This document shows, in pieces, positions 41,268-62,596 of a stretch of DNA of 64,000 nt. Positions within the stretch are counted from its first letter, which is position 1. Each line of letters starts with the position of its first letter. The notes beneath the pieces were generated by a model. It was not told the DNA's origin and did no database searches. It was given only the letters and a program-made list of their open reading frames with translations. The translations under genes were made by a program, and so were the position numbers. Location of the stretch: NCBI GenBank assembly GCA_000165345.1, contig CM000431.1, positions 992,001-1,056,000 of the forward strand, written 5' to 3'.

Positions 41268-44200
41268 TTAAAACTCTTGGGATAAAATATTTCGTGAGAT
41301 AGCAATTGGTAATTTGTATATACTTAGGTTATCTTGATTAAGCAAATCATCTGTGCTGTTAAGCATTGTAAAGCCTCTAGGGACGTACTTATCAATTCTG
41401 TAGGCTCTATTAGATGCTTTGGACTGTATTGCAATCATAATTTGAGGTGCTTTGTTTAAAAACTTAATAGATTTAATAAATCTATCATATGAAAAATTCT
41501 CCAAAGTATGGATAACTTTTTCAATCCATTGGAATGGAAAATCAGTACCTTCAATAAATGTAAAGAATAAATTTGAAAAAAGCTCAATTTTATTAGGAAG
41601 ATTTTTGAATTTATTAATACAGTCCCTCTTAACTTTGTAGAAGAAGCTCTTATCAATAATGAATGGTGTCTCGAAAATCTCTTTTATAAATACAATAAGA
41701 AACTCAGAAAGACTTACTATATCTTTCGAGTAAGATTCGACTTGGACGACTGAAAAAGTAAGAGTAGAGTAATAAGATGTAGAAAAGACTACAACTGAAT
41801 AGTTTTTGTTTGAAATCTTCTTTAAAAATTTACTAGCCAGATCTGACAGTATAATACTTAAGAGAGTTACTAATGAAATAGTGAAAGGTGTCTTTGTTCC
41901 TATAAATAAGGCCAATGATGAAATTGACTTTTCTTCATCAATACTCGAGTATTCAAATCTATAACTTTTCCAAAGTCTAATAGGAAGGGTAGTCAAATCC
42001 AAAACCTCATAACTGTTAAAGTAATTTTCTCCTGCATGATAAATAGGAACAAGCATATTCTTAATAGAGTATTCTTTAGATTCTTTCCTAAAAGCATTTT
42101 TAAGAAGCTCATGATCCACTATTTCTGCATTATACTCATTAACTGACAAAGAAATAATACCTGAAATTATGATATTTCTTCCAAGACAATCCAGAAATTC
42201 ATTAACAACTAATCCAGCTTCAAAAGGATCAATATTGTTCATAAATAAACCCTCAACTTGTCCTTGCTTTGCAAAAAATTCACTTAGCTCTATAATATCC
42301 CGATAACTTATGTATTTGAGCTCATTTAATCTATCAAAAGGAGATAATGACTGATTTTCTGTGACAGATCGTAAAATTGTCAAAGATTTTATGATTGACG
42401 GAGTAAAGTAAACATATTGATATAAATATCTATTTACATGTTTGAATGCATCCTCAAATTGTTCAAGTGTGAAATATTTGTTTGGATGACTAAGATGTTT
42501 TGCAAATATTCTCAAAAACTTAGGAAGAACATCATGGAATCCTTTTAGGTGGATTTCAAACCCATTTGGGAGACCATTATAAGTGTAATCGTTGAAACTT
42601 GAAATCTTAAATTCATTCCTCGCAATTCTAAAGTCATATATTTCATCCTCAAGAGAATTATTTAATAAAACACAAAGGATTTCAATTGCCACTACTAGTC
42701 TTGGTAGTACTTTTAGTACTTTTGGATGTCTTCCTATTTTTGAATTGATATTTGGGGTTAGAATCCTGATTAAAATTGAAACCTCGGGGTAGGATTGTTT
42801 AACTGAATTCTTATAATAGAAGTAGACTATGTTCGAGTAAAAGTCAAAACGCTTAATATTCGCTTCATTTGATTCTTGTTCTATATTCTCACCAACAATA
42901 TTCTTAAGCATATCATTGCTATGCGTAGTCTCAATATCGGTCAAATTTTGGTAAATGCTTTTTGCAAGCTCTGAATTATTGTAGAGCTTATTTATTAATG
43001 CTCCTTTCTGATTTAAATCTGAATAATGACTTGCATCACTTTCATACCAAAAATTATATTTATTAATAATATCATTTTCCATAGAATTGAAACTTCTTAT
43101 GTTTTTATTCATGAATCTTTTAATACTCAGTATTAAAGGTTGAGGAACTATTTTTGTATCTTCATCACTTGGTCTTAAAGATAAGTCAAAAGGAGTGTAT
43201 GGGTTAAGAGTAGAAATATCCAAATTATAAGTACTTTTAATTGCAGAAAGTGATAAATTGTAGATATCTTCAAAGAATTCGCTGGGAAATCGATTAACAC
43301 AATAATCTGTGAGTAGATTCTTTGATTTGTAAACCATGTTACATTCAACAAAAGAATTTTCCTTGTTAATTTCATCAGACTCTTGATCAGAGTTTCCTTT
43401 GCCTATATCTTTTTTAATACTAGTATCTTCAGTCTGGAGTTCCTTCTGGAAAATAAATGTTAAAATTTTTATCAAGTATTGCTTAATTGTATTGTAAACC
43501 CATAGAATAATTTGAGTTACATCTCTTTTATTATTTTTAGGAGATTCAATACCAGCTGGGGTAACATTAGAGTTTAGTACATTAAATCCTCTAGAATAAA
43601 AGCTTGATCTAAATACTTTATGGCTACCTGTAATTTTTTTAATTAATAATACAGGTGTAAAAAAGAATATAGAAACTTGATCAATTTTTATTGAGCTAAT
43701 AAAAGCTTTAATAAATGAAATATCAACAATTTCCATAACTTCATCTGCATATATAATTTCCTGAGGTTTAATTCTGTATTTGCTAGCTTTGTAAACTATA
43801 TTATATGCAAGGTCTCTAGTAAATTCGGTCTCTCTATAATTGAAAATAATATCTGCTACATTTTTCGCCTCTTCTACAATTCTTTCTGATACTGGCAATT
43901 CAATGATATACTTTACTGCTGATATGACTGCTTTAACTAAATTCCACGAATGTCTTAATTGACTATTGTAGAGATCTATTGATATATCCAATGTTGAAAA
44001 CCCTTCATAATTTACTACTCCTACCTTAATTGGGTTAGAAATTCCAATAGACTTTAAGTATTTGCGTAATATTCCCTTATAATTTCCATCTAAAAGATAT
44101 TTAATATACATAGTAGGGATCCTTTTCCAATTAACAACTTGTATTTCAATTGGAAATCGGAGGTTGATTGTGTTAATCCCAGTTTTTTTAAATCTCCGTA

Positions 44201-45137
44201 TAGTCACAATGTTCTTTGAGATTCTAATGAAAGGGTTTACAATATATTTATAGCTATCATCAATTCTCACTATATTAAAACCGTTACTTTTAATATGAGC
44301 AAAGTTTTGAATTACATATTTTTCCAATTTGTCAAGAGGTTCTCTTCCAACTATAGCAAGTTTCATGTTATTAGGTGAATAGAATTTTGAGAAATAGTGA
44401 CGAACTTTTTCATAGATCTCTCCTTCTGATAGATGTGGGTTATTTAATAGAGTATTTTTATTTCCATAATAGAATGTGTCAAATTTAGCATTTAAGCCAA
44501 TTATTTCTCTTTCTATTTCTCTTTTTGCCCAGAACTCATTTCTTTTCATTCTATTTAACTGGCTAAATATTGTTAGCATTGCTTTGTTAATAGTATCATT
44601 ATTCAACAAAGGACTATGGAAATAGCTACTAAATCTGAATATGCTTTCACTAAGGTATTCAGTGCCTATTGTAAATGAATATACTGTAGATTTTTCATGA
44701 AGGTCCAAATACATTCTTCCATTCAACAGCTTTATAAAGTTATGGAACTCATTTATATTTGGATATTGATAAGAAGCCAGCAAAAGGCTATATTGTACTA
44801 AATTTGACAATCCAATAATTTTTGGAGGGTCGTAAAGAAACCCGACATCAACTAAAATTGCAACTTCAGACTTTTCTGCATCTTCTTTGCTTACTAAAAA
44901 AGCCTTCAAACCATTTTTCAATTTAATATAGCGATATTTTGCTTTATCAACTCTGGATTTTATAAATTTATCGTCATCAATAACTGATTTAATGTGTGGG
45001 CTCTTAGAATCGTAATTATGAGCCTGGCTTGAAAATGAAAAGCTTTTCACACAGTTTTCAGAATTATAGTAATTAAAGTTTAATGACAATAAATAAACCA
45101 ATCCAAAAAGAAATAGAAACTTCAAACTAATGAACAT
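41268..45137 (-). CDS. insulinase-like (peptidase M16A, insulysin/IDE-like) secreted protein, paralogue 1 of a tandem array; catalytic HxxEH motif lost (NLVQY)
   Basis: Signal peptide MFISLKFLFLFGLVYLLSL. YRYIKLKNGLKAFLVSKEDAEKSEVAILVDVGFLYDPPKIIGLSNLVQYSLLLAS aligns with IDE [55 protein letters not shown]. The C-terminal VPRGF motif is shared with the other paralogues. Confidence 0.8.
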   Translation of the reverse strand: MFISLKFLFLFGLVYLLSLNFNYYNSENCVKSFSFSSQAHNYDSKSPHIKSVIDDDKFIKSRVDKAKYRYIKLKNGLKAFLVSKEDAEKSEVAILVDVGFLYDPPKIIGLSNLVQYSLLLASYQYPNINEFHNFIKLLNGRMYLDLHEKSTVYSFTIGTEYLSESIFRFSSYFHSPLLNNDTINKAMLTIFSQLNRMKRNEFWAKREIEREIIGLNAKFDTFYYGNKNTLLNNPHLSEGEIYEKVRHYFSKFYSPNNMKLAIVGREPLDKLEKYVIQNFAHIKSNGFNIVRIDDSYKYIVNPFIRISKNIVTIRRFKKTGINTINLRFPIEIQVVNWKRIPTMYIKYLLDGNYKGILRKYLKSIGISNPIKVGVVNYEGFSTLDISIDLYNSQLRHSWNLVKAVISAVKYIIELPVSERIVEEAKNVADIIFNYRETEFTRDLAYNIVYKASKYRIKPQEIIYADEVMEIVDISFIKAFISSIKIDQVSIFFFTPVLLIKKITGSHKVFRSSFYSRGFNVLNSNVTPAGIESPKNNKRDVTQIILWVYNTIKQYLIKILTFIFQKELQTEDTSIKKDIGKGNSDQESDEINKENSFVECNMVYKSKNLLTDYCVNRFPSEFFEDIYNLSLSAIKSTYNLDISTLNPYTPFDLSLRPSDEDTKIVPQPLILSIKRFMNKNIRSFNSMENDIINKYNFWYESDASHYSDLNQKGALINKLYNNSELAKSIYQNLTDIETTHSNDMLKNIVGENIEQESNEANIKRFDFYSNIVYFYYKNSVKQSYPEVSILIRILTPNINSKIGRHPKVLKVLPRLVVAIEILCVLLNNSLEDEIYDFRIARNEFKISSFNDYTYNGLPNGFEIHLKGFHDVLPKFLRIFAKHLSHPNKYFTLEQFEDAFKHVNRYLYQYVYFTPSIIKSLTILRSVTENQSLSPFDRLNELKYISYRDIIELSEFFAKQGQVEGLFMNNIDPFEAGLVVNEFLDCLGRNIIISGIISLSVNEYNAEIVDHELLKNAFRKESKEYSIKNMLVPIYHAGENYFNSYEVLDLTTLPIRLWKSYRFEYSSIDEEKSISSLALFIGTKTPFTISLVTLLSIILSDLASKFLKKISNKNYSVVVFSTSYYSTLTFSVVQVESYSKDIVSLSEFLIVFIKEIFETPFIIDKSFFYKVKRDCINKFKNLPNKIELFSNLFFTFIEGTDFPFQWIEKVIHTLENFSYDRFIKSIKFLNKAPQIMIAIQSKASNRAYRIDKYVPRGFTMLNSTDDLLNQDNLSIYKLPIAISRNILSQEF

Positions 45138-45488
45138 TTTATTTCTTTATTTTTCATTGATTTATATGGGTTCATGCACCCTTTTTTCCCACAGTTTTTT
45201 TTTCCTTCACACGTGATAATTTTTTTAAAAATTATACGGTACCGGTAAATATATAAATGCCGGTATCGTGATTATAAGAAAAAATGTCAAATTTAATAAT
45301 TTCATATATGAGAAAAAGTTATTGAGAGAAATTCAACAGGCATAAACAAATTTTTTCAAAAGTAATTATAAATAAATATTTTGAGCTTTACTCTAGCGAA
45401 AACCTAAATTCGCAAATTTAAGTACTTGATATCTCTACCAGTCGTGCTAGATATATTAAAGTAGTGATAAGCGTCGTTCATTAGTATT

Positions 45489-48400
45489 TTATGCATCAAT
45501 CAATCTAATAGGGATCCTAATAAACTTGCAAACACCAGAACTAGTTACCTGGTCTAAGTCTTTAATACTAACAAATCCTGAGGGAATATAATTTTGTAGC
45601 TCTTCCCATTTCAAATTTTCTAAATCTTGTTGAGTTGCAATCAAGAACTTTTGCGAACTTAGAATTAAATTAAATGTATCAATAAATGTTTGAAAATCCA
45701 ATTTTTTCAAAGATGGCTTTATCTCTCGTAAAACATTAAATATGCTTATCCTGGAAGTTATTTTAAATAATAGTCTTGATTCGTAAGACCCAAGCTCAGA
45801 CCCTAAATCTTCATTCAAAAGTATTTTATTCTTTGCTTGGTCAAATATCTCTTTTCGAATATTTGTAATAAAAGTGATAAGATTATAAAAAATATCTAAA
45901 ACCTTTTCAGAGAGGACTGAAACATTGTCTAGCCCTGATAATTTAATAGCCAGTCCAATATGTAAAGCTTCATTAACATTTGGGAAAAATTCAATTTCTG
46001 CTCCAGATAAAGAAAGCTTTTCATTGAAAATGGTAAAAATATATTCAAATACGATTTGGAATGCAACTGATTGTGAATTAAAGTATGAAAATGGAACATA
46101 TAATAGTGAATTTGAGTTCAAAGAATTATTTAAGCTTATTTTATTTAAATAATAATAGTTTGTGGTAATTCGACAACAAAGAGGATCAATAACTTTCCAA
46201 GTTTGAATGGAGCTTTTAATGGGGCTAAGTTTCGAAGAAACTTGATTGTTCTTGCCACTTTTATTACGTATTCCTGACGTGAATTGATTCAATATTGTAT
46301 AAGCCTGAACTGGATTTGCGTTTCCAAGCAATGCGCCTTCCAATGATCCATTATTACATAATAGTAAGGACAGTTCCAAAATTTGTTCAAGAGTAATTGA
46401 ACTGTAATCGCTTTCCAAAGATAAAATCGATGTTTTCTGCTCTTCAAAAATTGATTTCAAGAATAACCGAGATACTTCGCTCAAACTTCGATGAATATTC
46501 TCAGATTTGACTTTGTTTTGAATAGCTTGTTTAATCTCTTCAAACTTTTCCTGAGAAATGATTCTGTTCAAATGAAGGATTTTTTTAGATAATGATCTAA
46601 TAGCTAAAAAAATTGAACCTAAGAATCCTTTGATTTTGATTTCAACTCCAAAAGGAACTCCACCAAGTTCTGATTTCAGGATACTTGAAATCAAAAAGAC
46701 TCCTTCAATGCTTTGCATTTGATTAATTATATCTCCAGCTGAATAATTAATACAAGCAACTAAAACTTCAAGTGATAAAATTAGATCTTTGATGGATTTA
46801 GTATGTACCAAATCAATAATAGGTCTGTTTAAAACACTTTTATTGTTTTCAAGCTTTTTTGGTTCTGGAAGCATTATTCTAAGGAAGAATGTTGCAGAAG
46901 GAGCCTGGTAATTTATGTTATTGAAAAAAATAAAGCTGCTATATACTGGATAATTAATATTGTCTTTAATCTTTTTATGAAGACTTTTAAACTTTGGTGA
47001 ACTTTCTGTTGATAAGTAATCTAAAACTGCATTTTTTAGAATTGTAGGTGTGTATATTCGATAGCTTGCACTGCTTGAAAAATTTAGTAAGGGAGTGTTA
47101 CCCAGAAGTTTGTTTCTTTTCCTGATTCTGAACTCAATAGACTTTGCACGAATCTGGCTAACTGCAGAATTTACTTGGGTGAAAAATTCGGCAGAGATCT
47201 TTTCTACAATGTACTTATTATTGAATATTGGGCAAGTTCTAAACTCAATATCCTTGTCTTTAGAACTGATCAATTTTGAACTTGGATTGGTCTCAATCCT
47301 CTTCTCTTGTTCCTGTGCCTGTTCTTGTTTCTGTACCTGTACCTGTTCTTGTTCTTGCTCCTGTCCCTGTTCCCGTTCCTGTTCTTGTTCCTGTTCCTGC
47401 TCTTGATCCTGCATAAAATTAAGTTCATGTTCTTGTTTTAAATATGAATCTTTCTCAATTTGAGAATCATCGTTATCCTGGCCTTTGCTTGCCAATAAGG
47501 GATTATTATTCCTATTCGGAATTATAGGGTTATTATTTATAGGAGTATTTACATTCAATTCTGGAATAATACCCTGGTCTTTATTCAATATACCAAAATT
47601 ACCTTTATGAAAATCCGTGAGTTTTACAAAAACGAGCAAATTTTCTATAGAAATTTTATTCAAAAATGCAGAAATCTCTTCAAAGCTTGAATCCCTTATA
47701 AGATTTCCAGCAATAAGAACCTCCTCGGGAGAGCATCCCTTAATATCAAAAGAATCAATAATCTGTTTAGATATCTGCCTTGGAGAAACATCAAAATAGT
47801 AATCGAACTTGTATTTGAGTATCTGCTTGATCTCAGCAAGAATCTCTTGATTTACGGGAGAAGATTTAATATGTTCTAAAGCAATAAAAGTTGTCTGAAT
47901 AATTGATTTAATCTTATCAATTCCTTTAGACGTAAGTAAAAACCTGATTTCAAAACTTGAAAATGAGTACCTGTGAGAATTGGTTACTGCATCCATCTTT
48001 GAGATCCATCCTTTTTTTATAAGAAAATTGCTCAAACTCTTCTCAGAATTATCTTTGAGTAAATATTCTAAATAGGAACTTGGAGAAGAATCCCAAAGAA
48101 CTTCCTGATAATCTATGGGAAACTCGAGAATTAGCTCATTAATAGAATGAGCTTTAACATAAATAGCGTTTCCAACTACTCCAAGGTGAGGATGGCGAAC
48201 TATTTTTGCTAAGTCAAATGGAAGTGGATTGGAAATATTCAAATTCTTAACCAAAGAAAAGTTTAAAACTACTTCATTTGACAATTTAGCTATAGTATGC
48301 TTACTGGCTACGACTAGAGTCATAATACTAGAGCTGTACTGTTGATAATAGAAATTCTTTACTTGTTCAAGTAAGTTAATCTCTGAAATCTCTCTAGCTT

Positions 48401-49094
48401 CTTTAATTGATTTATCAGTAAGAACATTTAATCTCTTAAATATATGGTCATCCAAAGAAATGTCTCTTATAACACATTGAAACAAAAACTCACTATTATT
48501 CAGTAAGCTCTCAAATGTACCAGAATATTCTTTAGTCTTGGCAAAAAATAATTTCTCAGGAAATGAAGGATTCCTAATCATGTCGCTCAATCTGTCCAAA
48601 ACTGTTGAAATATATTGACTTCCAACCTTTATAGTAAATACTGAATTTCTCTCATAAACTTCCATGTCTATTTCTCCATTAATTGAAATAATAAAGTTAC
48701 AAAAATTGGAATGATCGAAAAACCGATAGGTTCCTAAACAAAGTGATTCTTGTACCAAACTTACAAGACCTGGAAGATCCTCAGGGTCCATAACAGATCC
48801 AACTCCAACAGAGAGAGTAATTATTGAATATTCAAAGTTATTATTTGATACAAGAAACACTGACATCTGATTCTGAAGTTTCATGAATTTATATGTAGAA
48901 CCATCTATCTTTGATTTTATAAATGATGAGCTCTCTACCTCGCTTACTGTCCTCCCTAGTTTTGTTATTATAGGCTTCGCCAAACATGAGCTAAACCTTG
49001 AGATAACATCAAGTTTTTTTCCATTCTTAAATTTCTTCGCCGAAAATGCTAACACAATTTGAGTAAACAACCAAAAAATATGCAATAGCCTCAT
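45489..49094 (-). CDS. insulinase-like (M16A) secreted protein, paralogue 2; HxxEH replaced by SLVQE; contains an internal (QE)n low-complexity insert
   Basis: Signal peptide MRLLHIFWLFTQIVLAFSA. YKFMKLQNQMSVFLVSNNNFEYSIITLSVGVGSVMDPEDLPGLVSLVQESLCLGT corresponds to the M16 active-site region without the His residues. The C-terminus has IPSGF. Confidence 0.8.
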   Translation of the reverse strand: MRLLHIFWLFTQIVLAFSAKKFKNGKKLDVISRFSSCLAKPIITKLGRTVSEVESSSFIKSKIDGSTYKFMKLQNQMSVFLVSNNNFEYSIITLSVGVGSVMDPEDLPGLVSLVQESLCLGTYRFFDHSNFCNFIISINGEIDMEVYERNSVFTIKVGSQYISTVLDRLSDMIRNPSFPEKLFFAKTKEYSGTFESLLNNSEFLFQCVIRDISLDDHIFKRLNVLTDKSIKEAREISEINLLEQVKNFYYQQYSSSIMTLVVASKHTIAKLSNEVVLNFSLVKNLNISNPLPFDLAKIVRHPHLGVVGNAIYVKAHSINELILEFPIDYQEVLWDSSPSSYLEYLLKDNSEKSLSNFLIKKGWISKMDAVTNSHRYSFSSFEIRFLLTSKGIDKIKSIIQTTFIALEHIKSSPVNQEILAEIKQILKYKFDYYFDVSPRQISKQIIDSFDIKGCSPEEVLIAGNLIRDSSFEEISAFLNKISIENLLVFVKLTDFHKGNFGILNKDQGIIPELNVNTPINNNPIIPNRNNNPLLASKGQDNDDSQIEKDSYLKQEHELNFMQDQEQEQEQEQEREQGQEQEQEQVQVQKQEQAQEQEKRIETNPSSKLISSKDKDIEFRTCPIFNNKYIVEKISAEFFTQVNSAVSQIRAKSIEFRIRKRNKLLGNTPLLNFSSSASYRIYTPTILKNAVLDYLSTESSPKFKSLHKKIKDNINYPVYSSFIFFNNINYQAPSATFFLRIMLPEPKKLENNKSVLNRPIIDLVHTKSIKDLILSLEVLVACINYSAGDIINQMQSIEGVFLISSILKSELGGVPFGVEIKIKGFLGSIFLAIRSLSKKILHLNRIISQEKFEEIKQAIQNKVKSENIHRSLSEVSRLFLKSIFEEQKTSILSLESDYSSITLEQILELSLLLCNNGSLEGALLGNANPVQAYTILNQFTSGIRNKSGKNNQVSSKLSPIKSSIQTWKVIDPLCCRITTNYYYLNKISLNNSLNSNSLLYVPFSYFNSQSVAFQIVFEYIFTIFNEKLSLSGAEIEFFPNVNEALHIGLAIKLSGLDNVSVLSEKVLDIFYNLITFITNIRKEIFDQAKNKILLNEDLGSELGSYESRLLFKITSRISIFNVLREIKPSLKKLDFQTFIDTFNLILSSQKFLIATQQDLENLKWEELQNYIPSGFVSIKDLDQVTSSGVCKFIRIPIRLIDA
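47286..47412 (-). repeat. imperfect hexanucleotide (CTGTTC/CTGTWC)n coding repeat giving QEQEQEQEQEREQGQEQEQEQVQVQKQEQAQEQEK
   Basis: Directly visible tandem 6-mer repeats on the plus strand. They lie in frame inside paralogue 2. Confidence 0.85.
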
Positions 49095-49808
49095 TCTTAT
49101 TAGTAATAAACTGTTGTAAAGCTGGCTGTTCTTATACTATTTTAATCTACCTGTAAATTTATTCCAACTTTCATTACCCTTCTGCAAAAAATTTTTTACA
49201 GAATTACCAACCCTAATTGTAAATTTAAATTACTGGTATCGAAAATCTGGCGGGCTTTGCCTGACTAATTTTAGTTTGAAAATATGCAAAGAAATTTGCA
49301 AAGATTAACTTCAAATGTATTCAGTGAACAAAACTATATTTTGTCTCCATTGATTTTAGCTTCTTAAGCTTTATTTTTATTTACCTGTCGTTGGAACTAT
49401 TTATTAATTTTCTCCGTATGAGTAAATGATTCTACTTGTTCTAAATGCATTCATGCAAAATTCTAAATTAGATCAAAATCCAACTAATAAATATATAACT
49501 ACTATTTTCATATTGCTATGTATTTTTAACTATATTCAAATCTATTTTCTCAATGCTTGTAAGAATATACTCCATCTATATTAATCATTTAAACCCTTTA
49601 AATAAATAAAACTAATGTATAGAAATACATTTCAAAATTAGCAATTTTAAAGTAACTTAATAAATGGAAAAAAGACATTAAATTCATAGAGCTAATCTAC
49701 CTATGTTTATTGTTACAAAATAGTGTAATAAAACATTGCATCATTATACTATTTTGTAGCTATGTGATAGTTTTTGAATAACAAATAAATAAATATTCCA
49801 AATCACAT

Positions 49809-53934: not shown

Positions 53935-56900
53935 TTAAGTAATAAAATTGTTTTCAATTGCGATCTTTTTTACAATACTTGTTGAGTTTATTCTGTTAAA
54001 CCCTTCTAGTTTGAATGAATTTGCTTCTGCCAATTCAATGGCTGAAACATGAGTCTTTACAATAGAAATAAGAACTTTAGCAGGTTTAACAAAAACTCCC
54101 CATTTGTTAAGGAATTCATTATAGTTAAGATTAAGTAAATATGCAACTTGAATATACTTCCAGTTTGGATCTGATTTTCTATCAAGTAGAGAGCCGGAAT
54201 ACTGATCAAGAAGTTCAACCATATTTATATGAGGAATTTCAATACTAGCAACAGCACGATTAACCCCTTTCTTGAATTCATCTCTGGAAATGAGAGGAGT
54301 GACAAGAGTAAAGTACTTATTATAGAATTGTACTGCCAAACTAGTTAACTTGATGATGCTATATTCTGGTGAGGAAATCATGATTTTGAGCAACAAATAG
54401 CTTGTTCCTATACTATAGGGAGAAATTGCAAACTCAGTTTTTGGATACTCTGAAGATGTAAACTCTTTGAATGCGTTTTTAATATCCAAGTTCACCACAA
54501 GCTGTAAAAATGCGAGCATTTCTTCTGAATATTTACCAACCTGGACTTCCATATATACAACAGAAAGATCTTCATTTGAATTAGAGCATTGCTTAAGATA
54601 AAATATATCCTTATATTCAACAGGCAAAGAGTCCATATTTATCCTATTAATCCATTTTCCTTTATAACTTCCTTCTGGTAAGAATGCTTTTTCTGAGTAG
54701 TCAGTAGTTGAGATTTTTCTTGTAGAGTTTGTTTCAGAGTAACTTTCATCATTACTTGTAACATAAACAATTGTATTATTGTTAAACTCTAATAACTGAT
54801 TTGAATTAGTTGAATTTAACTTATTTGTTAAATTGAAATCATTATATTCAATTATACTATCTTCTATATCAGCAAAGTTAGTGGAAACATTCAAAAATCT
54901 AAGGTTGCTTACATCGCTCACTGCTACAAAGTCTCTATTAAGCATTCTCCCAATCTTTAATAAGTAAGAGTTAACCTGCATTGGAGTACAGTTTCCAATA
55001 ACTAATGATTCAATGGAGCCCATTTTTATTATGTAAGATGCAAAATCGACAACATCTTTAAATTTAATACTTTTTAGAGCTTGAGAGAACATTGAAGGAG
55101 TCATCATATAAAAATTAAGAATTTCAAAAGAAGTATATTCTGCCAGAGTTTTGCTTTGTAGAGAGGAAATTTTATTTAGTATTAGCTGGAAATCTGACTT
55201 TGCATCATTAAAATGGTTCTTATTGACAAAAGTTCCATACTTTCTTAAGCCATTAAATACCGTTAAGAAGAAGTTATCAAAAGATGAAGTGTAATTCGTC
55301 CACTTAAATTCTATTCCCAAGAAAGAATTCTGAAGCTCTGAAATTGATTTATAATTACTTTCAACAATACATTCCCTGTATTCTGATGGAATTGCATATT
55401 TGAAGGACTTCATGAAAAGATAAGATAGGGTTACAAGCCTAGCATTTGTTTTTGGAAGAGATTGAAACCCATATACCACCAAAGATTTTGGCTGAATGAA
55501 AATTCTTGAGCTTAAGGAAATCTTTGGAACCCCAACATTAATAGGGAAGTAGAATGTGGAATAAGCAATTGGTGAAACAAACTCATTAAATCCTGATAAG
55601 ACATTATTCATTAGCGTCTCATCAATATCTTCCGTCGTATTTGATGTATATTTGATATAAGATGCCAAAGATTCAACCAAAAGTTTTGGATGCACTTGTG
55701 GAGGTATATCATAAGTATAGATTTTATATTGTTTTGGATAATTTATTACAATCTCAGTAATATTGAAACCCAAATGCTCAAATGCTAAATTCTTATTACT
55801 ACCTTCAAATACCTCTAAAGTCTTTGTTGGGATATCAGTAATTAAATAGTTTGCATTCAAGTATCTTTCTATTTTGAAATTTGGATATTCTCCAGGTTTT
55901 GCTCTCATAAATGACCTACGAATTATTCTCATGAATGACATAAACTTTCTAGAGAACCAACCCCATCCTGATTCACCATAAACTTCACTAGATAATAAAA
56001 AGTCTTTAGAGTTTCTATTAAATGAGCTAGATGAAAATGTAACTACCATATTAAATGGATTTAAATATTCTAATAGCATCCTTACATAGCCATGATTTAT
56101 AGCTTCAAGCTCATAAGGTACTAAAAGTACATTTTCTGGAGAACATTCACTTTCAAAAAGTGACTTTACGATATTCTTGGAGTATCTGTAATATCCTGTA
56201 CTTTTATACTGTTTGAGTATTCCTTGTTCTACACGTCTTATTTGCTCATTTAAATATTTATTATATCTTGCAGTCTTTACAGCATCTAAAGTTCCAAAAA
56301 TAGCTTGTATTACTCTAACTAACTTATCCCTATCAGAATCCACCAAAATTGCTTTTATAACCAAGTTAGAGAAACCTGTATCATGATTTACTATATCAAC
56401 CTCGATTTCTCTAACCCAGCCCAGATTTGTCATCTTATCCAAGAATCCATCATGGAATCGTTGAGTTAAGAAGTATTTGACATATGATCCTAACTTATAT
56501 TTCCAAAGCTTACTCTGATTTGGTATTGGAAATTCCATTGTAATGTATGCTTCTGGAGTTCGAGATTTAACTTCTATAAATTTCCCAATTAATGTATCAT
56601 AAGGGTGAGTCACATTTCCAGAAAACTCTTCTGGCTTTCCTGGAGTGACACCAGTACTGAATAAGTCAGAAAACTCATTTCTTACTAGCTCTTCTACAGT
56701 TTCTAGACTTAAACTAGTTGCAATACTTAACACCATTAAGTGGGGACTATAGTATTTTTTTTTAAACCTTATGGCTTCCTCATGAACTGAGAGATTATTC
56801 TTCGAAGGAATCTCTCTCAATGTTTCATTTGTGCCATATGGAAATCTATGGAAGGCATGAGAAGAATTTGAAAGTTCTCGCTTTAATTGTAGTTCTTGCA

Positions 56901-57807
56901 AAGAATCAACACGTTTAAATATTTCAGTCAGCTCTGTAACCTGAGAAATTGATTCGTCCAATGAACTCCAAGTAATTTTTGTCTTATCAAGTCTTTTTCT
57001 AAAAGCACTGACAGAAGACATGAAATACTTTGATTTAATATTATATGAGTAAATTGTAGAAAATTTGTTTGATTCAACATTAAAGTAGCCGTTGTTATCA
57101 TCCAAAAGTTTCCTAAAATCTGTGTCGCTTGTAACATTCTGTTCTTTTTTAAACAGTTCTTGTGTTATTAAATAAGATACGCCATCAATTCCTTTTGGGT
57201 CATGAGCACTCCCTACTTCTATTCCCAATGACAAAGAGGATGTGTAAAGTAAACTGTTTGATACCAAAAAAACTTTGAGTCCGTTATCTAGTTTGATATA
57301 TCTATACTTATTTTCATCACCAAAATATTTATTAAATTGATCATTATCAATTAATGTTTGGTATCTTAAAGGGCTCTGATTTTCTTGAAACTCTTCTTCA
57401 TTTATCAATTCATCCATTGAATCTAGGCCATATAAACAGTTCAATCCATAAAAGCATTTTTTTCCACTTTCTTTTAATTTCAAATACTCTTCTTCTGAAT
57501 GAAGCCTCTCTTTAAGGTTCTGTAAATCATTAATATCCGTTTGATTGAAGATGATATTTTCTGCAATATCATCTATATCTGTAACGTTAATAAATAACTT
57601 ATCCAAATCGAATTGATCTATTGGGTTTCCTTTTTCATCTGTAATCACCTCTATAAGACTAATTTCAATAGGATGCCTTGATCCGGCCTTTTGGCTCAAG
57701 CAAATTAGAACAAATAAAGCCCCTGCTAAAACAAAGAGCCTCTTCAAAAAACACATAGTTTGATAAAAAAGTTTAAATAATGAATGTTTATTCATTTGAA
57801 ATACCAA
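53935..57807 (-). CDS. insulinase-like (M16A) secreted protein, paralogue 4 (1290 aa); HxxEH replaced by SYLITQE
   Basis: Signal/anchor MNKHSLFKLFYQTMCFLKRLFVLAGALFVLICLS. YRYIKLDNGLKVFLVSNSLLYTSSLSLGIEVGSAHDPKGIDGVSYLITQELFKK. KYYSPHLMVLSIATSLSLETVEELVRNEF aligns with IDE [29 protein letters not shown]. Confidence 0.8.
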   Translation of the reverse strand: MVFQMNKHSLFKLFYQTMCFLKRLFVLAGALFVLICLSQKAGSRHPIEISLIEVITDEKGNPIDQFDLDKLFINVTDIDDIAENIIFNQTDINDLQNLKERLHSEEEYLKLKESGKKCFYGLNCLYGLDSMDELINEEEFQENQSPLRYQTLIDNDQFNKYFGDENKYRYIKLDNGLKVFLVSNSLLYTSSLSLGIEVGSAHDPKGIDGVSYLITQELFKKEQNVTSDTDFRKLLDDNNGYFNVESNKFSTIYSYNIKSKYFMSSVSAFRKRLDKTKITWSSLDESISQVTELTEIFKRVDSLQELQLKRELSNSSHAFHRFPYGTNETLREIPSKNNLSVHEEAIRFKKKYYSPHLMVLSIATSLSLETVEELVRNEFSDLFSTGVTPGKPEEFSGNVTHPYDTLIGKFIEVKSRTPEAYITMEFPIPNQSKLWKYKLGSYVKYFLTQRFHDGFLDKMTNLGWVREIEVDIVNHDTGFSNLVIKAILVDSDRDKLVRVIQAIFGTLDAVKTARYNKYLNEQIRRVEQGILKQYKSTGYYRYSKNIVKSLFESECSPENVLLVPYELEAINHGYVRMLLEYLNPFNMVVTFSSSSFNRNSKDFLLSSEVYGESGWGWFSRKFMSFMRIIRRSFMRAKPGEYPNFKIERYLNANYLITDIPTKTLEVFEGSNKNLAFEHLGFNITEIVINYPKQYKIYTYDIPPQVHPKLLVESLASYIKYTSNTTEDIDETLMNNVLSGFNEFVSPIAYSTFYFPINVGVPKISLSSRIFIQPKSLVVYGFQSLPKTNARLVTLSYLFMKSFKYAIPSEYRECIVESNYKSISELQNSFLGIEFKWTNYTSSFDNFFLTVFNGLRKYGTFVNKNHFNDAKSDFQLILNKISSLQSKTLAEYTSFEILNFYMMTPSMFSQALKSIKFKDVVDFASYIIKMGSIESLVIGNCTPMQVNSYLLKIGRMLNRDFVAVSDVSNLRFLNVSTNFADIEDSIIEYNDFNLTNKLNSTNSNQLLEFNNNTIVYVTSNDESYSETNSTRKISTTDYSEKAFLPEGSYKGKWINRINMDSLPVEYKDIFYLKQCSNSNEDLSVVYMEVQVGKYSEEMLAFLQLVVNLDIKNAFKEFTSSEYPKTEFAISPYSIGTSYLLLKIMISSPEYSIIKLTSLAVQFYNKYFTLVTPLISRDEFKKGVNRAVASIEIPHINMVELLDQYSGSLLDRKSDPNWKYIQVAYLLNLNYNEFLNKWGVFVKPAKVLISIVKTHVSAIELAEANSFKLEGFNRINSTSIVKKIAIENNFIT

Positions 57808-58326
57808 GGAAAATGCTTTGTCGTTTATTCTAATAATTAAACGCCCAACAATTTAAATGAACTTCTTCATTTCAATTAAAATTCAAGTTTAGCATTCACT
57901 GCCTATTATTGGCCTGATTAAAATTCCATTTATTTATTAACCTGTTGTTTTTCCTGATTTTACTATTCATATCCCACACCCCCACAAATATTTACAACTT
58001 GATCAAATCTCAAGTTAATTCTCACAGGGATTTCTAATACAAATTCTGATACCTAAATGATTTTTCTATTTTATCATTTTCTTGTAAAAATTGAATTTTA
58101 TTTAAATCATAAAATCTGTATCTTTCTATTCCATTTAAACCCTAATTTAGGATTGCTCGAATGCTCATGTATCCCGCCAACAAACAATTTCAAGATATCT
58201 AAGGAATCAAAAGGTGAAAAAATAAAAATTATTCGGAGAGGGAATTTCTAAATCATTAAGATTTGTATGTTTATCGCCTACTAAATTTAAGTTTTCTTAT
58301 AAGTGTTTGAACCCTTGAAAAAGAAC

Positions 58327-61300
58327 TTATGTGTTAAATATATCTTGCTGCTCGTTAATGTCATAAAGACTTTCTGCAAATAAAAGTTTGGTAAACCCTT
58401 GAGGCAAATATGACTCAAGGGACTCAAAAAGTTCATAGTTTGTGTTTTGTGATTGATATGAAATAAATAGTTTTGATGAGCTACCGAAATACTGCCAATA
58501 TTTATAAAACTGGTCAAATGTTAAAGCATCAATAAATTCTAAATAATCTTTTTTCCATGAGCAAGAAAAGTGGGTATGTTTGGAAGCTCCCATATGTAAA
58601 GATGCTAGTGTGAATAAATCTTCTGACTCCGACCCTTCGTAGTATATTTTATTGGTTTTTGATGTGATTTGGCTGCCAAGGTTGTTTTCTATTAATCTTG
58701 CGTTTCTGGAAAGTAATAATAAAAATTCTTTGGCTTTATTAAACCCTGACCTAGAAATCATCTTTGAAGGCCTGGAATAATATGTTAGGAAGAAATTGTT
58801 AAGGAGCTCGCCAAGTTCTCTAATGTTTTTAGTTGGGGACTGTAGCTTGAACTCAAGAACTAAATATTTACCAAGTATTATTCTAGGGAGCACTTTTAAA
58901 GAACAATCTGGACAAACTTTATCTGAGAACTCTATAAAATACTTATATGAATTGAGCTCTGAAACTATTTGAAGGAATGCCAAGTTCTGCTCGCTATAAA
59001 ACCCATAATGAATTTGGAGGAGAACCATATTATCCTTGCTATTTTTGCTTGAATTAATGTAAAAGAAGTAAGAATTGCTGTAGTTGTATGGCAATCTACT
59101 CATATCACTGAATGAATTTCTTGTGTATCCAAGATTCTCAATATTCATAGCATTGTATGTGTTTGTATGAGTAGCTCCATTTGGCTTTCCAATTTGATTA
59201 TTATTGTCGCTTTTAAGATCTTTAGATGTTGATTTTTTGCTTCCAGATCTAAGCATTCTTCCTTTCTCTTCAAAGCTAAATTCTTCAAATCCAAGAGTAT
59301 TAAAATCTTCATTTATGTCTGAATTGACTTGTTTTGTTGAATTGAACATATTTTCCGTTGTGTTCAAAGAAAGCTCTAAAGATGAACTGTCCATTCCTCG
59401 AATGGTATTTACAAAACTGGATAGGTAATATTTTATTTGTATCGGAGTTGCATTTCCAAGTACTGATCCTGAAATTGAGAAGTTTTTAATAAAAAAGTTA
59501 GCAAAATCAATGAGGCTTTGAATGGTTATTTTGGACATTTCATCTTCTAGCCTGCTAATTTTCATAAATCCTGGGTCAAGCAACTGGTAGGAAAGCGAAA
59601 GAAGTCTGAGATTATCATTTTCTGACTTGAACGAATTAATAATATCTTGGAAACGTTGTTTGGCATTCTGAAAGCTGGACTGCTTAATAGAAGTTTGGAA
59701 TGTGGATAGAATATTTGCAATCTCATTCAAACTGTCGGGAAAAATAGAGGAATAACCCCTCCAACTAAATTCTATGCCATAGAAGAACTCTTGTAGCTCC
59801 CAATGGTGATAACTTCTTTCAAAAGAAAAGTTCTCATTTAGGTGGCTAGGCAAAACATCGTAAAGGGTATTTTGGAATAAGAACATTAGTATTGCTAGCT
59901 TTTCTGGGCAGCTGAATTCTTTTGGAGGATTGCTCGGGACCTGAAGTCTTACAGAAATCATTACATCAGGATTGAATGATGTCGGAAGGTAACAAAAACT
60001 TCTTGAAATTGAATCCATTTTGTTTGTACTTAAAGCAACTACCAAATCTCTTGGATTTATTGGAGTTGATAAATTTAAATAAGAAAAGTCCGTAGAATTA
60101 TTGGAAGCTTCTGATAAGCTTATTTCAGTAAGATTTTTAGCCTGTTTAAACTCTTTAACTGCATAGTAGAGAGGAATAGGAAACTCTTTCTTGGGAACAT
60201 CTTCCGTATAAATAACGAAATTTCTCGGGAATTTGGGGTCTATTTCAGGCATTTGTAACTTTAAAATATCATTAGCCAACGTGGAATTAACAGACTGCAG
60301 TACCTCAATGACTTTACTTGGAATGTCCTCTAATAAATATTCTCCACCTAGGTATTCCTCTTTCAAAAACTTCGGAAATGTGCCTACTTTTGTCCTATGA
60401 AAAGCTGTGTTTACACTTCTGAAGAAGGAAGATATTGACTTTCTTGCACTCTTCCACTTACTATCCAAGAAAAATTGACTGGAAAGGAGGATATTGGAAG
60501 CACTCTTTTTGAATTCTTTCTTTTCAAGAATCAATATTAAATTATCATACTTCATATGGTCTATTATCTCCTTTACATGATTAAATTCTATCTTATTCAT
60601 TGATACTCCTGCATGTAAAACTTCTGGAGGTGAACAGTTCGTTCTCAAAAATGTGTTAACAATTTTTCTGGATAGATCTGAGTAAAGAGAATCAATAGAA
60701 GCCTCTAAGATTGATTGTCTCTTCTTTCTGATCTGATTAATTATTGTTTCTGAAATGGAAACTTCTTTAATCAGTTTTAGGAAAGATAAAGTGATCTCTA
60801 AAATCTTTACAATGGCTTTTTCACCTTTAGAGTTTAACTTAAATCTAATAATAAAGTTTGAAAAACCATTGTCATTTACCTCAATCATAGTCTCTAAGCC
60901 TAATATTATTCCAATTCCCTTTAAATAACTGTAAAGACTTTTATTTGAATAATCTGTAAAGAAGAATGAAATATACTCAGCAGGTTTGTACTTCCAAAGT
61001 GGGCTCTGGTGTGGAATAGGGAATATCACCGTAAAATAAGTGTTTTCTTCCGCAGATTTTACCTGTATTACTTTATTATTTAAATCAATATAAGGATGAA
61101 TGATTTCATTTGAAAGGTCAAATGGAGTAATTAGTTGTTTGCTCTGGTTTGGAATTTCATCAAAAAATGTTCTTGCAAGACCTTCAAGCTCATCTATGCT
61201 TTTATCTGAAACAATTGAAATAGTCATCAAATTTGAACTGTAGTAAGAGCCGTAAAACTTAATTAGTTCAAAAAGAAGAGCTTCTGTATCGAAATCTATA

Positions 61301-62100
61301 TTTGCCATCAACCTTTTCATATTGCCCATATGAAAACCATGGTTAACATGGCCTTCAACAGAAAGTTCCTTAAGAATTTGTTTAAGTTTTATAGAACTCA
61401 TACCCATTAAGGCTTCAAAGTCTGATTGCAATGCTTCCATTGCTGGGTCTAAATGAATTCTTTTGGGGCTAAAACTTTTCAAGTAAGAACAGAATTTTAT
61501 TAGTGCTTCAGAAAAATACTCATGCTTGATAGATAGATGGTATTCCGTTAAAAATGGAGCAACTTTAGTCTTGAAAATCCCAGAGTTACTGGAAATAAAA
61601 AGATCATATGGTGTCTCCCTGCCAACATCAGGCCTCTTCCAATCGTAAAACAACAATTCACTTAATAAAGTTGCCAAGCCTGGGAATTTCTTAGGTTCCA
61701 TGGAGCTACCCACTCTAACCCCTAAAGTAATTGAAGAAAATAAACTGGATCTCTGTGATACAAGAAAAACCTGAATATCATTTTTTAATCTAATAAAACT
61801 GTATTTGTTTGAATCCTTGACTGATTTTATAAAGTCTTCATCGTAGAAACGGCTATAAGCATCATTAATGTTCTTTTTAGCTCGATATTCTGATATTCTA
61901 TTCATTCCCCCTATATAATATTGACCATCCAGAGCTAAAGAGTCGTTCTTTATCATTCTGGTACTTGATTCTACCAAAATATCACTAAAAGATGAATTGT
62001 TTGCTGTTAATGCAATATTAGAAGCTAGACATCTCTCTAAACTAAGAGAAAGCTGAACTAAAAGTCCGAATAAAAATATTTTTGAGGTCATTTTTACCAA
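58327..62100 (-). CDS. insulinase-like (M16A) secreted protein, paralogue 5 (1257 aa); HxxEH replaced by TLLSE
   Basis: Signal peptide [111 protein letters not shown] aligns with IDE [48 protein letters not shown] aligns with FPIPDLQKYYKSNP. The C-terminus has LPQGF. Confidence 0.85.
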   Translation of the reverse strand: [1257 protein letters not shown]

Positions 62101-62578
62101 CTTCTGATCAATTTCTTAGAAATCCCTAATTTATAATCAGATCTTTAAGTTATTTAAAAGTTATATACAGAATGGTGAATTCTAAATAGCTAATTTGCAT
62201 CCAAATCTTTCTTAATAGTTTGCATGGATGAGCCCAAAGTGGTTGCAGAAGACTGCTGAATTTTATTCAACCAGATTCACTAATATTTAATTACTTTTTT
62301 AAAATAATATTTTCTTTAAGGACAATTTTTCTTGGTGCCTCTCTAATCCTAAATTACCGCTGGAAAATATTAAAGCTTCAATAATTAGAAAAAAAATGCT
62401 AAGAAAATTAGTAATAGATGTAGAGTAAATATTATCTAATTAACCTAATTATAAAATAAGGTCTTTCTCACGAAAACATAGAGAAAATACTATCATTCCC
62501 AGCAAGTTATTGGGAGGAGCACGTTTGAACCAATTATGCTATTTACAAAAAATCGGTGAATGCCCACACATTAGCAAA

Positions 62579-62596
62579 GTTCCGCCAATTGGGGGA
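62579..62596. promoter_or_regulatory. E2F-like site TTCCGCCAATTGGGGGAG about 480 bp upstream of paralogue 5
   Basis: A CCGCCAA core like the other intergenic GGCGCCAA/TTCCCGCCAA sites in the window. Confidence 0.25.

What the first reader, a model, noticed from the sequence alone, without database searches (positions are those of the whole stretch)
41268..62100. Paralogues are extremely divergent apart from motif islands, pointing to ancient duplication or rapid evolution rather than recent tandem copying
The array is strictly tandem, yet the five full-length copies share only short conserved islands. These are the N-terminal YxxIxLxN..xVFLVS block, YYSxxLM, FPIP and the C-terminal [VI]P.G[FY]. 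Everything else differs at the amino-acid level, and the intergenic spacers are not alignable by eye. This is the signature of birth-and-death evolution under diversifying pressure. It is typical of parasite surface and secreted families, and it makes this locus a candidate for inter-species or inter-isolate variability.
Basis: seen in the sequence. Interest (0 to 1): 0.55.

Follow-up and report, generated by a model that had tools for sequence, protein, structure and literature searches.

The report
Known Cryptosporidium inactive insulinase-like gene array
This is the already-described tandem block of secreted insulinase-like (M16) genes near the end of Cryptosporidium parvum chromosome 3; the copies differ so much because they duplicated long ago and each has been conserved since, not because they are diversifying fast.

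Summary
The window is C. parvum chromosome 3. The five minus-strand ORFs match the annotated "secreted insulinase-like peptidases" exactly. By gene order they are INS7–INS11 (cgd3_4170–4210), with part of INS12. This is the inner half of the published 11-gene INS block. The observation largely holds: identity is 23–28% at amino-acid level, there is no detectable nucleotide similarity, spacers are unalignable and there are no gene-conversion tracts. Two points need correcting. The "motif islands" are the generic M16A motifs also found in human insulin-degrading enzyme. Copy C carries only degenerate versions of them.

"Ancient duplication" is supported. "Birth-and-death under diversifying pressure" is not. 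The array is colinear with one-to-one orthologues in C. hominis, C. meleagridis, C. ubiquitum and C. bovis. Every orthologue group has 100% bootstrap support. Gene-wide dN/dS is 0.10–0.35, and no bootstrap replicate exceeds 0.60. INS8 and INS9 evolve about 1.5–3 times faster than the others, but still under net purifying selection.

All five copies lack the HxxEH zinc site. Each has its own replacement, conserved across species, and INS10 still models as a full four-domain IDE-like clamshell. They are most likely old, secreted, catalytically dead M16 proteins. All the main points are already published, so novelty and interest are low.

The parts
41268..45137 (-). Copy A = INS7 (cgd3_4170 by gene order), 1289 aa, secreted insulinase-like M16A homologue. 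It is the first gene of the array, next to the zf-CCHC gene.
   Evidence: Exact match to EAK88952.1/QOY42769.1. Pfam Peptidase_M16 48 bits and M16_C 65 bits. Aligns to human IDE residues 16-447 with E 8.6e-39. dN/dS 0.13-0.16.
44790..44804 (-). Degenerate zinc site of A: NLVQY in place of HxxEH. The IDE E189 equivalent is Gln.
   Evidence: The site is NLVQH in C. ubiquitum, chipmunk genotype, C. canis, C. felis, C. bovis and C. ryanae.
45489..49094 (-). Copy B = INS8 (cgd3_4180 by order), 1201 aa.
   Evidence: Exact match to QOY42770.1. Pfam M16 41.6 bits and M16_C 48.9 bits. dN/dS 0.21-0.29.
48747..48761 (-). Degenerate zinc site of B: SLVQE.
   Evidence: Conserved in four species; NFVQK in C. 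bovis.
47298..47411 (-). (QE)n low-complexity tract in the inter-half linker of B, encoded by a hexanucleotide repeat. Its length differs between species.
   Evidence: TRF period 6, 17.3 copies, at 47308-47411. The tract is 38 aa in C. parvum, 64 in C. hominis, 87 in C. meleagridis, and absent in C. ubiquitum and C. bovis.
49809..53066 (-). Copy C = INS9 (cgd3_4190 by order), 1085 aa. It is the most divergent member and has no Pfam hit.
   Evidence: Exact match to EAK88948.1. No Pfam family. hhalign against A/B/D/E: probability 98%, E 2.8e-13, 928 colinear columns. dN/dS 0.29-0.35. Orthologues were found only in intestinal Cryptosporidium.
52728..52739 (-). Remnant of the zinc site in C: YF(A/T)L, with a 3-residue deletion where xEH should be.
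   Evidence: Conserved from C. parvum to C. ubiquitum; FL in C. bovis.
53935..57795 (-). Copy D = INS10 (cgd3_4200 by order), 1286 aa. An alternative downstream ATG gives the 1273/1274-aa annotations.
   Evidence: Exact match to EAK88949.1. Pfam M16 and M16_C. dN/dS 0.11-0.16. The AlphaFold2 model (pLDDT 77) superposes on full-length IDE: TM 0.71, E 3e-51.
57160..57174 (-). Degenerate zinc site of D: YLITQ.
   Evidence: The pattern is [YF]L[IL][TS][QE] across eight species.
54655..54930 (-). Asn/Ser/Thr-rich insert in the C-terminal half of D, predicted disordered.
   Evidence: Model residues 816-907 have pLDDT below 50. Coordinates checked.
58327..62091 (-). Copy E = INS11 (cgd3_4210 by order), 1254 aa.
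   Evidence: Exact match to EAK88951.1. Pfam M16_C 56 bits; the M16 domain scores 20 bits, just under the 22.3 cut-off. 27% identity to D over 1192 aa. dN/dS 0.10-0.13.
61657..61671 (-). Degenerate zinc site of E: TLLSE.
   Evidence: SLLSE in C. bovis.
62754..63968 (-). Copy F = C-terminal 404 codons of INS12 (cgd3_4220 by order). The gene runs off the window end.
   Evidence: Best reciprocal hit to the C. bovis 1187-aa array member, 43% identity. The C. hominis counterpart is 1275 aa.
45138..45488 (.). A-B spacer. It cannot be aligned to the other spacers in the array but is conserved at the orthologous position in other species.
   Evidence: 93% identity to C. hominis, 81% to C. meleagridis.
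49095..49808 (.). B-C spacer.
   Evidence: 94% and 86%.
53067..53934 (.). C-D spacer. The longest internal ORF is 79 aa; C. ubiquitum has a 71-aa gene call at this position.
   Evidence: 94% and 85%.
57796..58326 (.). D-E spacer.
   Evidence: 98% and 92%.
62092..62753 (.). E-F spacer.
   Evidence: 95% and 90%.

Best explanation
The region is the centromere-proximal half of the known 11-gene insulinase-like (INS, peptidase family M16A) block near the 3' end of Cryptosporidium parvum chromosome 3. By gene order it holds INS7-INS11 and part of INS12 (cgd3_4170-4220).

Shown: the genes arose by tandem duplications that predate the split between the C. parvum and C. bovis lineages. Since then the array has been static. 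Gene order, orientation and spacers are conserved, and each paralogue has evolved as a separate single-copy gene under purifying selection. That is why the copies now share only the structural core motifs of the M16 fold. All five copies have lost the HxxEH zinc-binding/catalytic motif. Each has a different replacement that is itself conserved across species.

Shown for INS10 only: the full four-domain IDE-like clamshell is retained.

Inferred: the proteins enter the secretory pathway through an N-terminal signal peptide and act as catalytically dead M16 'pseudoproteases'. They would use the retained peptide-binding chamber for non-hydrolytic roles, such as binding or sequestering peptide or protein ligands, or partnering the active INS members. 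Published stage-specific expression differences point to subfunctionalisation. INS8, and especially INS9, are under weaker constraint.
For: Identity and annotation: exact matches to C. parvum Iowa II/ATCC proteins. Gene numbering comes from Liu 2016 Table S2 and matches the gene order in L003.

Family: Pfam M16 and M16_C; IDE alignments with E 8.6e-39 for a single sequence and 1.5e-83 for the profile; C joined to the family by hhalign.

Age and stasis: colinear arrays in C. hominis, C. meleagridis, C. ubiquitum and C. bovis. Reciprocal best hits to C. bovis: A 47%, B 38%, C 29%, D 51%, E 43%, F 43%. Orthologue groups at 100% bootstrap. Saturated pS between paralogues. No conversion tracts. Orthologous spacers conserved.

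Selection: dN/dS 0.10-0.35 with 95% CIs all below 0.44.

Dead active site: no HxxEH in any copy. The column-by-column table against active outgroup insulysins shows group-specific, conserved replacements. The E189 equivalent is Gln in A.

Fold: the D model has pLDDT 77, TM 0.71 to IDE over about 1160 columns.

Secretion: hydrophobic N-termini and 'signal peptide-containing secreted' source annotations.

Literature: tandem cluster formed by duplication, degenerate catalytic domains, all members expressed, five expression patterns (PMC3305300). [quoted passage not shown] Only 10 of 22 INS retain HXXEH (PMC8092296; PMC12688253).
Against: The non-catalytic binding role is inferred, not shown. I found no localisation, knockout or biochemical data for INS7-INS11 specifically.

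The gene-ID assignment rests on gene order, not on a locus-tag look-up.

Signal peptides were judged from hydrophobicity and source annotation, not with a dedicated predictor.

The fold was modelled for D only. The model of C failed (pLDDT 34.8). The alignment used for D included genuine insulysins, which could bias the model towards that fold.

The array is not static at the deepest level of the genus. Liu 2016 scores INS7-INS10 as absent in gastric C. andersoni, which I could not test. At the far end of the same block, cgd3_4260/4270 is a recent duplicate that is missing in some species.

Pairwise NG86 dN/dS cannot detect positive selection confined to a few sites.
Confidence: 0.85

Rival explanations
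1. One reading: a birth-and-death family under diversifying (positive) selection, as in parasite variant surface or secreted families. The divergence would reflect continuing rapid evolution, and the locus would be a hotspot of between-species and between-isolate variation.
For: B and C have significantly higher dN/dS than A, D and E (bootstrap P <= 0.009) and more differences between isolates. A few 60-codon windows reach omega of about 1-1.2 in the C. parvum-C. hominis comparison, for example C codons 451-540. B has a length-variable repeat. INS7-10 are reported absent in C. andersoni. cgd3_4270 has been gained or lost at the other end of the block, and dN/dS above 1 was reported for cgd3_4250/4260/4280 against C. 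bovis (PMC7371110).
Against: There is no copy-number change and no rearrangement of these five genes in five species spanning the intestinal clade. Gene-wide omega is 0.10-0.35, and none of 1000 bootstrap replicates exceeds 0.60. A, D and E cannot be distinguished from the neighbouring housekeeping-type gene. There are no gene-conversion tracts. The omega >= 1 windows rest on 4-17 substitutions and disappear in the C. meleagridis comparison. The published omega above 1 values concern other cluster members and were obtained at a divergence where synonymous sites are saturated.
Confidence: 0.08
2. The copies are decaying relics: functionless or nearly functionless duplicates of an active protease that drift neutrally after losing the catalytic site.
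For: All five lack HxxEH. C is no longer recognised by Pfam. C and B show relaxed constraint.
Against: Intact ORFs of 1085-1289 codons are kept in at least five species. Omega is well below 1 even for C, with an upper 95% CI of 0.44. The degenerate active-site motifs are themselves conserved within each orthologue group. All cluster genes are reported as transcribed (PMC3305300).
Confidence: 0.03
3. The proteins are still active metallopeptidases that use a non-canonical set of ligands, so the divergence reflects specialisation on different substrates.
For: The complete IDE-like chamber is retained in D. A keeps the second His in most species, as NLVQH. The sources annotate the proteins as 'peptidase'.
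Against: Both the first His and the catalytic Glu are replaced in every copy and every species. In IDE and its yeast homologue a single substitution of that Glu abolishes activity (cited in PMC8092296). C has a deletion across the motif. The literature regards the non-HXXEH members as likely inactive.
Confidence: 0.04

Closest known systems
Cryptosporidium parvum chromosome 3 INS cluster (INS7-INS17, cgd3_4170-cgd3_4280), described by Mauzy et al. 2012, Guo et al. 2015 and Liu et al. 2016
   Same: It is this locus. The proteins match exactly. The tandem arrangement, origin by duplication, degenerate catalytic domains and very different nucleotide sequences are all already reported.
   Different: Nothing differs in kind. 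Added here for INS7-INS11: explicit dN/dS with confidence intervals, synteny and orthology out to C. bovis, a per-paralogue table of conserved degenerate zinc sites, and proof that INS9 is a colinear family member even though Pfam does not detect it.
Human insulin-degrading enzyme (IDE) and E. coli pitrilysin (protease III), M16A
   Same: Single-chain architecture of about 1000-1300 aa with four domains. The N-terminal half aligns with E 1e-38 to 1e-83. The YxxLxLxNGxxVxLxS, YYSxNLM and FPIP motifs are shared. The D model superposes on whole IDE at TM 0.71.
   Different: HxxEH and the distal Glu ligand are lost. Sequence identity is about 16%. The parasite proteins have signal peptides and lineage-specific inserts, such as the (QE)n tract in B and a 92-residue disordered insert in D.
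INS15/INS16 (cgd3_4260/4270), in the same block but outside the window
   Same: Same tandem array and family, also secreted. INS15 is a classic four-domain M16A protein.
   Different: [quoted passage not shown] The five genes here are the opposite case: old, inactive and stably retained.
Non-catalytic M16 proteins, such as the mitochondrial processing peptidase alpha subunit and cytochrome bc1 core proteins ('non-peptidase homologues' in MEROPS terms) - from general knowledge
   Same: The M16 fold is retained without a working HxxEH site, and the proteins are kept under purifying selection for a binding or scaffolding role.
   Different: Those are M16B half-size subunits that pair with a catalytic partner inside mitochondria. 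The proteins here are full-length M16A-type secreted proteins, and no partner or ligand is known. The analogy is an inference and was not tested.
Toxoplasma toxolysins TLN1/TLN4 and Plasmodium falcilysin
   Same: Apicomplexan M16 proteins, several of them in secretory organelles and involved in invasion or egress.
   Different: Those are reported or presumed to be active metalloproteases and do not sit in large tandem arrays. Orthology to INS7-11 was not tested.

Membership tests
Peptidase family M16 (evolutionary membership) | Significant sequence homology to the Peptidase_M16 (PF00675) and Peptidase_M16_C (PF05193) domains | tested here: met
   A, B and D pass both curated cut-offs. E passes M16_C (56 bits) and scores 20 bits on M16, just under the 22.3 cut-off. 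C has no Pfam hit but is joined to the others by hhalign at 98% probability, E 2.8e-13, over 928 columns.
Peptidase family M16 (active enzyme) | Inverted zinc-binding motif HxxEH plus a downstream Glu ligand | tested here: not met
   No copy has HxxEH. The aligned columns read NLVQY, SLVQE, YF---, YLITQ and TLLSE, against HxxEH in six outgroup insulysins. The IDE E189 equivalent is Gln in A.
M16A subfamily (IDE/pitrilysin type) | Single polypeptide with four homologous alpha/beta domains forming a closed chamber | tested here: met
   Met for D only: AlphaFold2 pLDDT 77, Foldseek match to full-length IDE at TM 0.71, E 3e-51. For A, B and E it is implied by length and colinearity. For C it is inconclusive, because the model had pLDDT 34.8.
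M16A subfamily (IDE/pitrilysin type) | Zinc-dependent peptide hydrolysis | not testable with these tools
   This needs recombinant protein assays.
Cryptosporidium INS family, chromosome 3 block | Sequence identity to the annotated cgd3_4170-4220 products, and a position next to the zf-CCHC gene about 50-70 kb from the chromosome end | tested here: met
   Exact protein matches. The C. hominis locus lies at 1,030,586-1,053,843 of a 1,102,581-bp chromosome. Numbering comes from Liu 2016 Table S2. The locus tags are assigned by gene order, not looked up directly.
Birth-and-death / diversifying parasite multigene family (e.g. MEDLE, subtelomeric INS19/20) | Copy-number differences between closely related species or isolates | tested here: not met
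   The same five genes plus F, in the same order, are present in C. hominis, C. meleagridis, C. ubiquitum and C. bovis.
Birth-and-death / diversifying parasite multigene family | dN/dS at or above 1 between orthologues | tested here: not met
   Omega is 0.10-0.35, and the highest bootstrap replicate is 0.60. Site-level selection was not tested.
Birth-and-death / diversifying parasite multigene family | Gene conversion or recombination tracts between paralogues | tested here: not met
   No blastn hits between CDSs. The longest shared exact run is 12-14 nt, equal to the shuffled expectation.
Secreted proteins | Cleavable N-terminal signal peptide | tested here: inconclusive
   Hydrophobic N-terminal segments give a maximum Kyte-Doolittle mean of 2.2-3.3 over 12 residues, and the source annotations say 'signal peptide-containing secreted'. 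No dedicated predictor or experimental data was used.

The most novel reading that the evidence does not exclude
INS9 (copy C) may be more than a relaxed duplicate. It could be a clade-restricted, fast-evolving pseudo-M16 that has been re-purposed as a host-interaction factor in intestinal Cryptosporidium. In that case episodic positive selection would be concentrated in its N-terminal half, and its sequence differences would contribute to host range. Supporting observations: identity to C. parvum falls to 91% in C. hominis, 79% in C. meleagridis, 55% in C. ubiquitum and 29% in C. bovis. N-half omega is 0.49 against C. hominis, with local windows at about 1. An exhaustive profile search finds it only in intestinal species. 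More broadly, a conserved set of five distinct dead M16 clamshells might act as a panel of ligand-binding receptors or decoys.
Probability: 0.12. Interest if true: 0.45.

Novelty: already known. Interest (0 to 1): 0.15.

Why it matters
The locus belongs to one of the few expanded gene families in a very compact parasite genome. Other INS members (INS1, INS6, INS15, INS20) have measurable effects on development or virulence. For this segment the useful result is mostly a corrective. INS7-INS11 are not a rapidly diversifying antigen-like family. They are old, individually conserved and catalytically dead. Their retention therefore points to non-proteolytic functions, and they make poor markers for isolate typing, with the partial exception of INS8 and INS9. 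All of this fits what is already published, so the finding does not open a new question.

Tried and rejected
1. AlphaFold2 on copy C with a 6-sequence orthologue alignment gave mean pLDDT 34.8. The model is unusable, so I ran no fold search on it.

2. A profile of C against PDB sequences gave only a marginal hit to protease III, E 0.039. I relied on hhalign instead.

3. The profile query A2 in the search for homologous proteins returned mainly orthologues of copy A rather than the whole family. [quoted passage not shown] The exhaustive profile search with C found nothing outside intestinal species apart from one weak unnamed hit. Absence in gastric species therefore rests on Liu 2016 only.

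4. dN/dS between paralogues cannot be interpreted. pS is 0.68-0.77, and the Jukes-Cantor dS is undefined or above 1.7.

5. Sliding-window omega found a handful of windows at or slightly above 1 in the C. parvum-C. hominis comparison. They rest on few substitutions and are absent in the C. meleagridis comparison, so I did not treat them as evidence of positive selection.

6. Literature searches for INS7-INS11 or cgd3_4170-4220 found no gene-specific functional data. No supplementary files were held for PMC7371110.

7. Only one local control gene (zf-CCHC) was available for the dN/dS baseline. I could not compute a genome-wide baseline.


Full report
**What is there**

The interval 41268-62100 holds five complete ORFs of 1085-1289 codons. 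All are on the minus strand and arranged head to tail. Spacers are 351-868 bp (measured to the ATG starts). A sixth ORF of the same kind (62754-63968) runs off the window. With the first ATG taken as the start, all five translations match database proteins of Cryptosporidium parvum Iowa II/ATCC exactly. Those proteins are annotated "secreted insulinase-like peptidase".

Liu et al. 2016 (PMC5146892, Table S2) list an 11-gene block INS7-INS17, cgd3_4170 to cgd3_4280. Copy A abuts the non-INS zf-CCHC gene. The C. ubiquitum numbering (cubi01223-01229, with 01226 left for a small extra gene) matches the gene order in locus L003. From this I assign A-E to INS7-INS11 (cgd3_4170-4210) and F to INS12. 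This assignment is inferred from gene order, not from a locus-tag look-up. In C. hominis the locus lies about 49-72 kb from the end of a 1.10-Mb chromosome.

**Checking the observation**

The divergence is real.
- Amino-acid identity is 23-28%.
- blastn with word size 7 finds nothing between any two coding sequences. Spacer comparisons give only short AT-rich chance matches.
- Codon-aligned nucleotide identity is 41-44%, and synonymous sites are saturated, with pS 0.68-0.77.
- The longest shared exact nucleotide run is 12-14 nt, the same as in codon-shuffled controls. There are therefore no gene-conversion tracts.
- Homology is nevertheless far above chance. blastp E-values are 1e-30 to 1e-114 among A, B, D and E.

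Three details in the finding need correcting.
- Copy C lacks the N-terminal block, YYSxxLM and FPIP. At the aligned positions it has only degenerate versions.
- Copy D has LEGF in place of the C-terminal PxG[FY].
- Similarity is not limited to islands. It runs over about 440 residues in A, B, D and E, and over 1192 residues between D and E.

**What the genes are**

Pfam assigns Peptidase_M16 plus Peptidase_M16_C to A, B, D and E, and nothing to C or F. A aligns to human insulin-degrading enzyme (IDE) with E 8.6e-39, and a profile of A, B, D and E does so with E 1.5e-83. The islands are therefore the universal structural motifs of the M16A fold and not a feature of this locus.

C is a genuine, colinear family member. 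A profile-profile comparison of its orthologues against the other four groups gives 98% probability, E 2.8e-13, over 928 columns.

An AlphaFold2 model of D was built from a 30-sequence alignment, after trimming the N-terminal extension. It has mean pLDDT 77. It superposes on full-length IDE with TM 0.71 (normalised to IDE), E 3e-51 and 16% identity. The complete four-domain clamshell is thus retained, with one 92-residue disordered insert. The model of C failed (pLDDT 34.8).

**The catalytic site**

No copy has HxxEH. I aligned the copies against six active outgroup insulysins, all of which read G-x-A-H-x-x-E-H-M-L-F. The corresponding columns are:

| Copy | Residues at the HxxEH position |
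|---|---|
| A | NLVQ[YH] |
| B | SLVQE |
| C | YF plus a 3-residue deletion |
| D | [YF]L[IL][TS][QE] |
| E | [TS]LLSE |

Each replacement is conserved across species within its orthologue group. In A, the equivalent of the third zinc ligand (IDE E189) is Gln. Loss of catalysis is therefore old and fixed. The literature already states that only 10 of the 22 INS proteins retain HXXEH and that the rest are likely inactive (PMC8092296; PMC12688253).

**Age of the duplications and mode of evolution**

I fetched ±10 kb around the orthologues of C. This shows the same five genes, in the same order and orientation and next to the same zf-CCHC gene, in C. hominis, C. meleagridis and C. ubiquitum. Two overlapping loci show the same array, F-like copy included, in C. 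bovis.

[quoted passage not shown] Identities are A 47%, B 38%, C 29%, D 51%, E 43% and F 43%, against 64% for zf-CCHC.

In a neighbour-joining tree (40 sequences, 992 columns, 200 bootstraps), each of the groups A-E is monophyletic at 100%, and its internal branching follows the species tree. D+E+F are supported at 97%.

Orthologous spacers are conserved: 93-98% to C. hominis, 81-92% to C. meleagridis and 52-66% to C. ubiquitum. Paralogous spacers are unalignable.

All the duplications therefore predate the C. parvum-C. bovis split, and the segment has been static since.

**dN/dS**

Nei-Gojobori dN/dS of C. parvum against three species:

| Gene | vs C. hominis | vs C. meleagridis | vs C. ubiquitum |
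|---|---|---|---|
| A | 0.13 | 0.16 | 0.15 |
| B | 0.29 | 0.22 | 0.21 |
| C | 0.32 | 0.35 | 0.29 |
| D | 0.11 | 0.16 | 0.12 |
| E | 0.12 | 0.13 | 0.10 |
| zf-CCHC neighbour | 0.15 | 0.24 | 0.11 |

All bootstrap 95% CIs lie below 0.44, and no replicate exceeds 0.60. B and C are significantly faster than the pooled A, D and E (P <= 0.009). Sliding windows show only a few marginal omega of about 1 windows against C. hominis and none against C. meleagridis.

Between C. parvum isolates held in the database, amino-acid differences number 0 in A, 2-9 in B, 4 in C, 1 in D and 1 in E. B also carries a (QE)n tract encoded by a hexanucleotide repeat. It is 38 aa long in C. parvum, 64 in C. hominis, 87 in C. 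meleagridis, and absent in C. ubiquitum and C. bovis.

**Interpretation**

The [quoted passage not shown] half is not supported for this segment.

The best explanation is old tandem duplication, followed by long independent evolution of each copy under purifying selection. All five copies are secreted, catalytically dead M16A clamshells. Their non-hydrolytic role, whether ligand binding or sequestration or partnering active INS proteins, is inferred and not shown. Published RT-PCR data fit subfunctionalisation: all cluster genes are expressed, at very different levels, and they fall into five expression patterns (PMC3305300).

Some birth-and-death does occur elsewhere in the family. cgd3_4260 and cgd3_4270, at the far end of the same block, share 90% nucleotide identity, and cgd3_4270 is missing in some species. 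Liu 2016 also scores INS7-INS10 as absent in the gastric C. andersoni. I could not verify that. My exhaustive profile search with C found it only in intestinal species: C. felis, C. xiaoi/C. bovis and unnamed assemblies.

**Novelty**

[quoted passage not shown] The per-gene dN/dS values, the table of conserved dead sites and the placement of INS9 are refinements. The finding is ordinary and already explained, and interest is low.

Noticed in passing
window 37426-39561 (-): A 711-aa ORF with about ten tandem acidic/serine repeats (SSSSDSSSSSEDEQPKKN...AKKAMSD), followed by what look like two RRM-type domains and a Gly/Arg-rich tail, so it resembles nucleolin. The 509-aa '+' strand ORF at 38138-39667 is the antisense reading of the same repeat and is almost certainly not a gene. 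C. bovis has a 718-aa gene at the syntenic position.
   Followed up: no
window 40122-41114 (+): A Lys-rich protein with several CCHC zinc knuckles, convergent with copy A and marking the inner boundary of the INS array. Synteny is conserved in all five species. I used it as the local dN/dS control (omega 0.11-0.24).
   Followed up: partly
window 47298-47411 (-), inside copy B: The (QE)n tract encoded by a TGTTCC-type hexanucleotide repeat differs in length between species: 38, 64 and 87 aa in C. parvum, C. hominis and C. meleagridis, and absent in C. ubiquitum and C. bovis. The three C. parvum B proteins annotated from the same start codon are all 1201 aa (the older Iowa II model is 1215 aa because of a different start), so I saw no within-species length variation.
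   Followed up: partly
window 57757-57795 (-), start of copy D: Annotations disagree on the start codon of INS10. Some give 1286 aa from MNKHSLF..., others 1273/1274 aa from the downstream MCFLKRLF.... The downstream start places the hydrophobic segment right at the N-terminus, as expected for a signal peptide.
   Followed up: no
L003:9228-9698 (C. ubiquitum); equivalent to the window C-D spacer 53067-53934: C. ubiquitum has a 71-aa gene call between the D and C orthologues, probably cubi01226. The C. parvum spacer holds an ATG-ORF of at most 79 aa. I did not check whether anything real is encoded there.
   Followed up: no
window 54655-54930 (-), inside copy D: A 92-residue Asn/Ser/Thr-rich insert carrying many N-x-S/T sequons is predicted disordered (pLDDT below 50). 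It interrupts the C-terminal half of the IDE-like fold and may be a glycosylated surface loop.
   Followed up: no
window 32495-36790 (-) and 15867-24503 (-): Large ORFs upstream of the array. The 1431-aa ORF corresponds to a P-type (E1-E2) cation ATPase that is syntenic in C. bovis. I did not examine the 2878-aa ORF.
   Followed up: no
Liu 2016 Table S2 compared with L001:5297-9160: The table marks INS10 (cgd3_4200) as 'absent*' in C. hominis. However, a complete 1287-aa orthologue is present in the chromosome-level C. hominis assembly. The 'absence' may therefore reflect an incomplete earlier assembly.
   Followed up: partly
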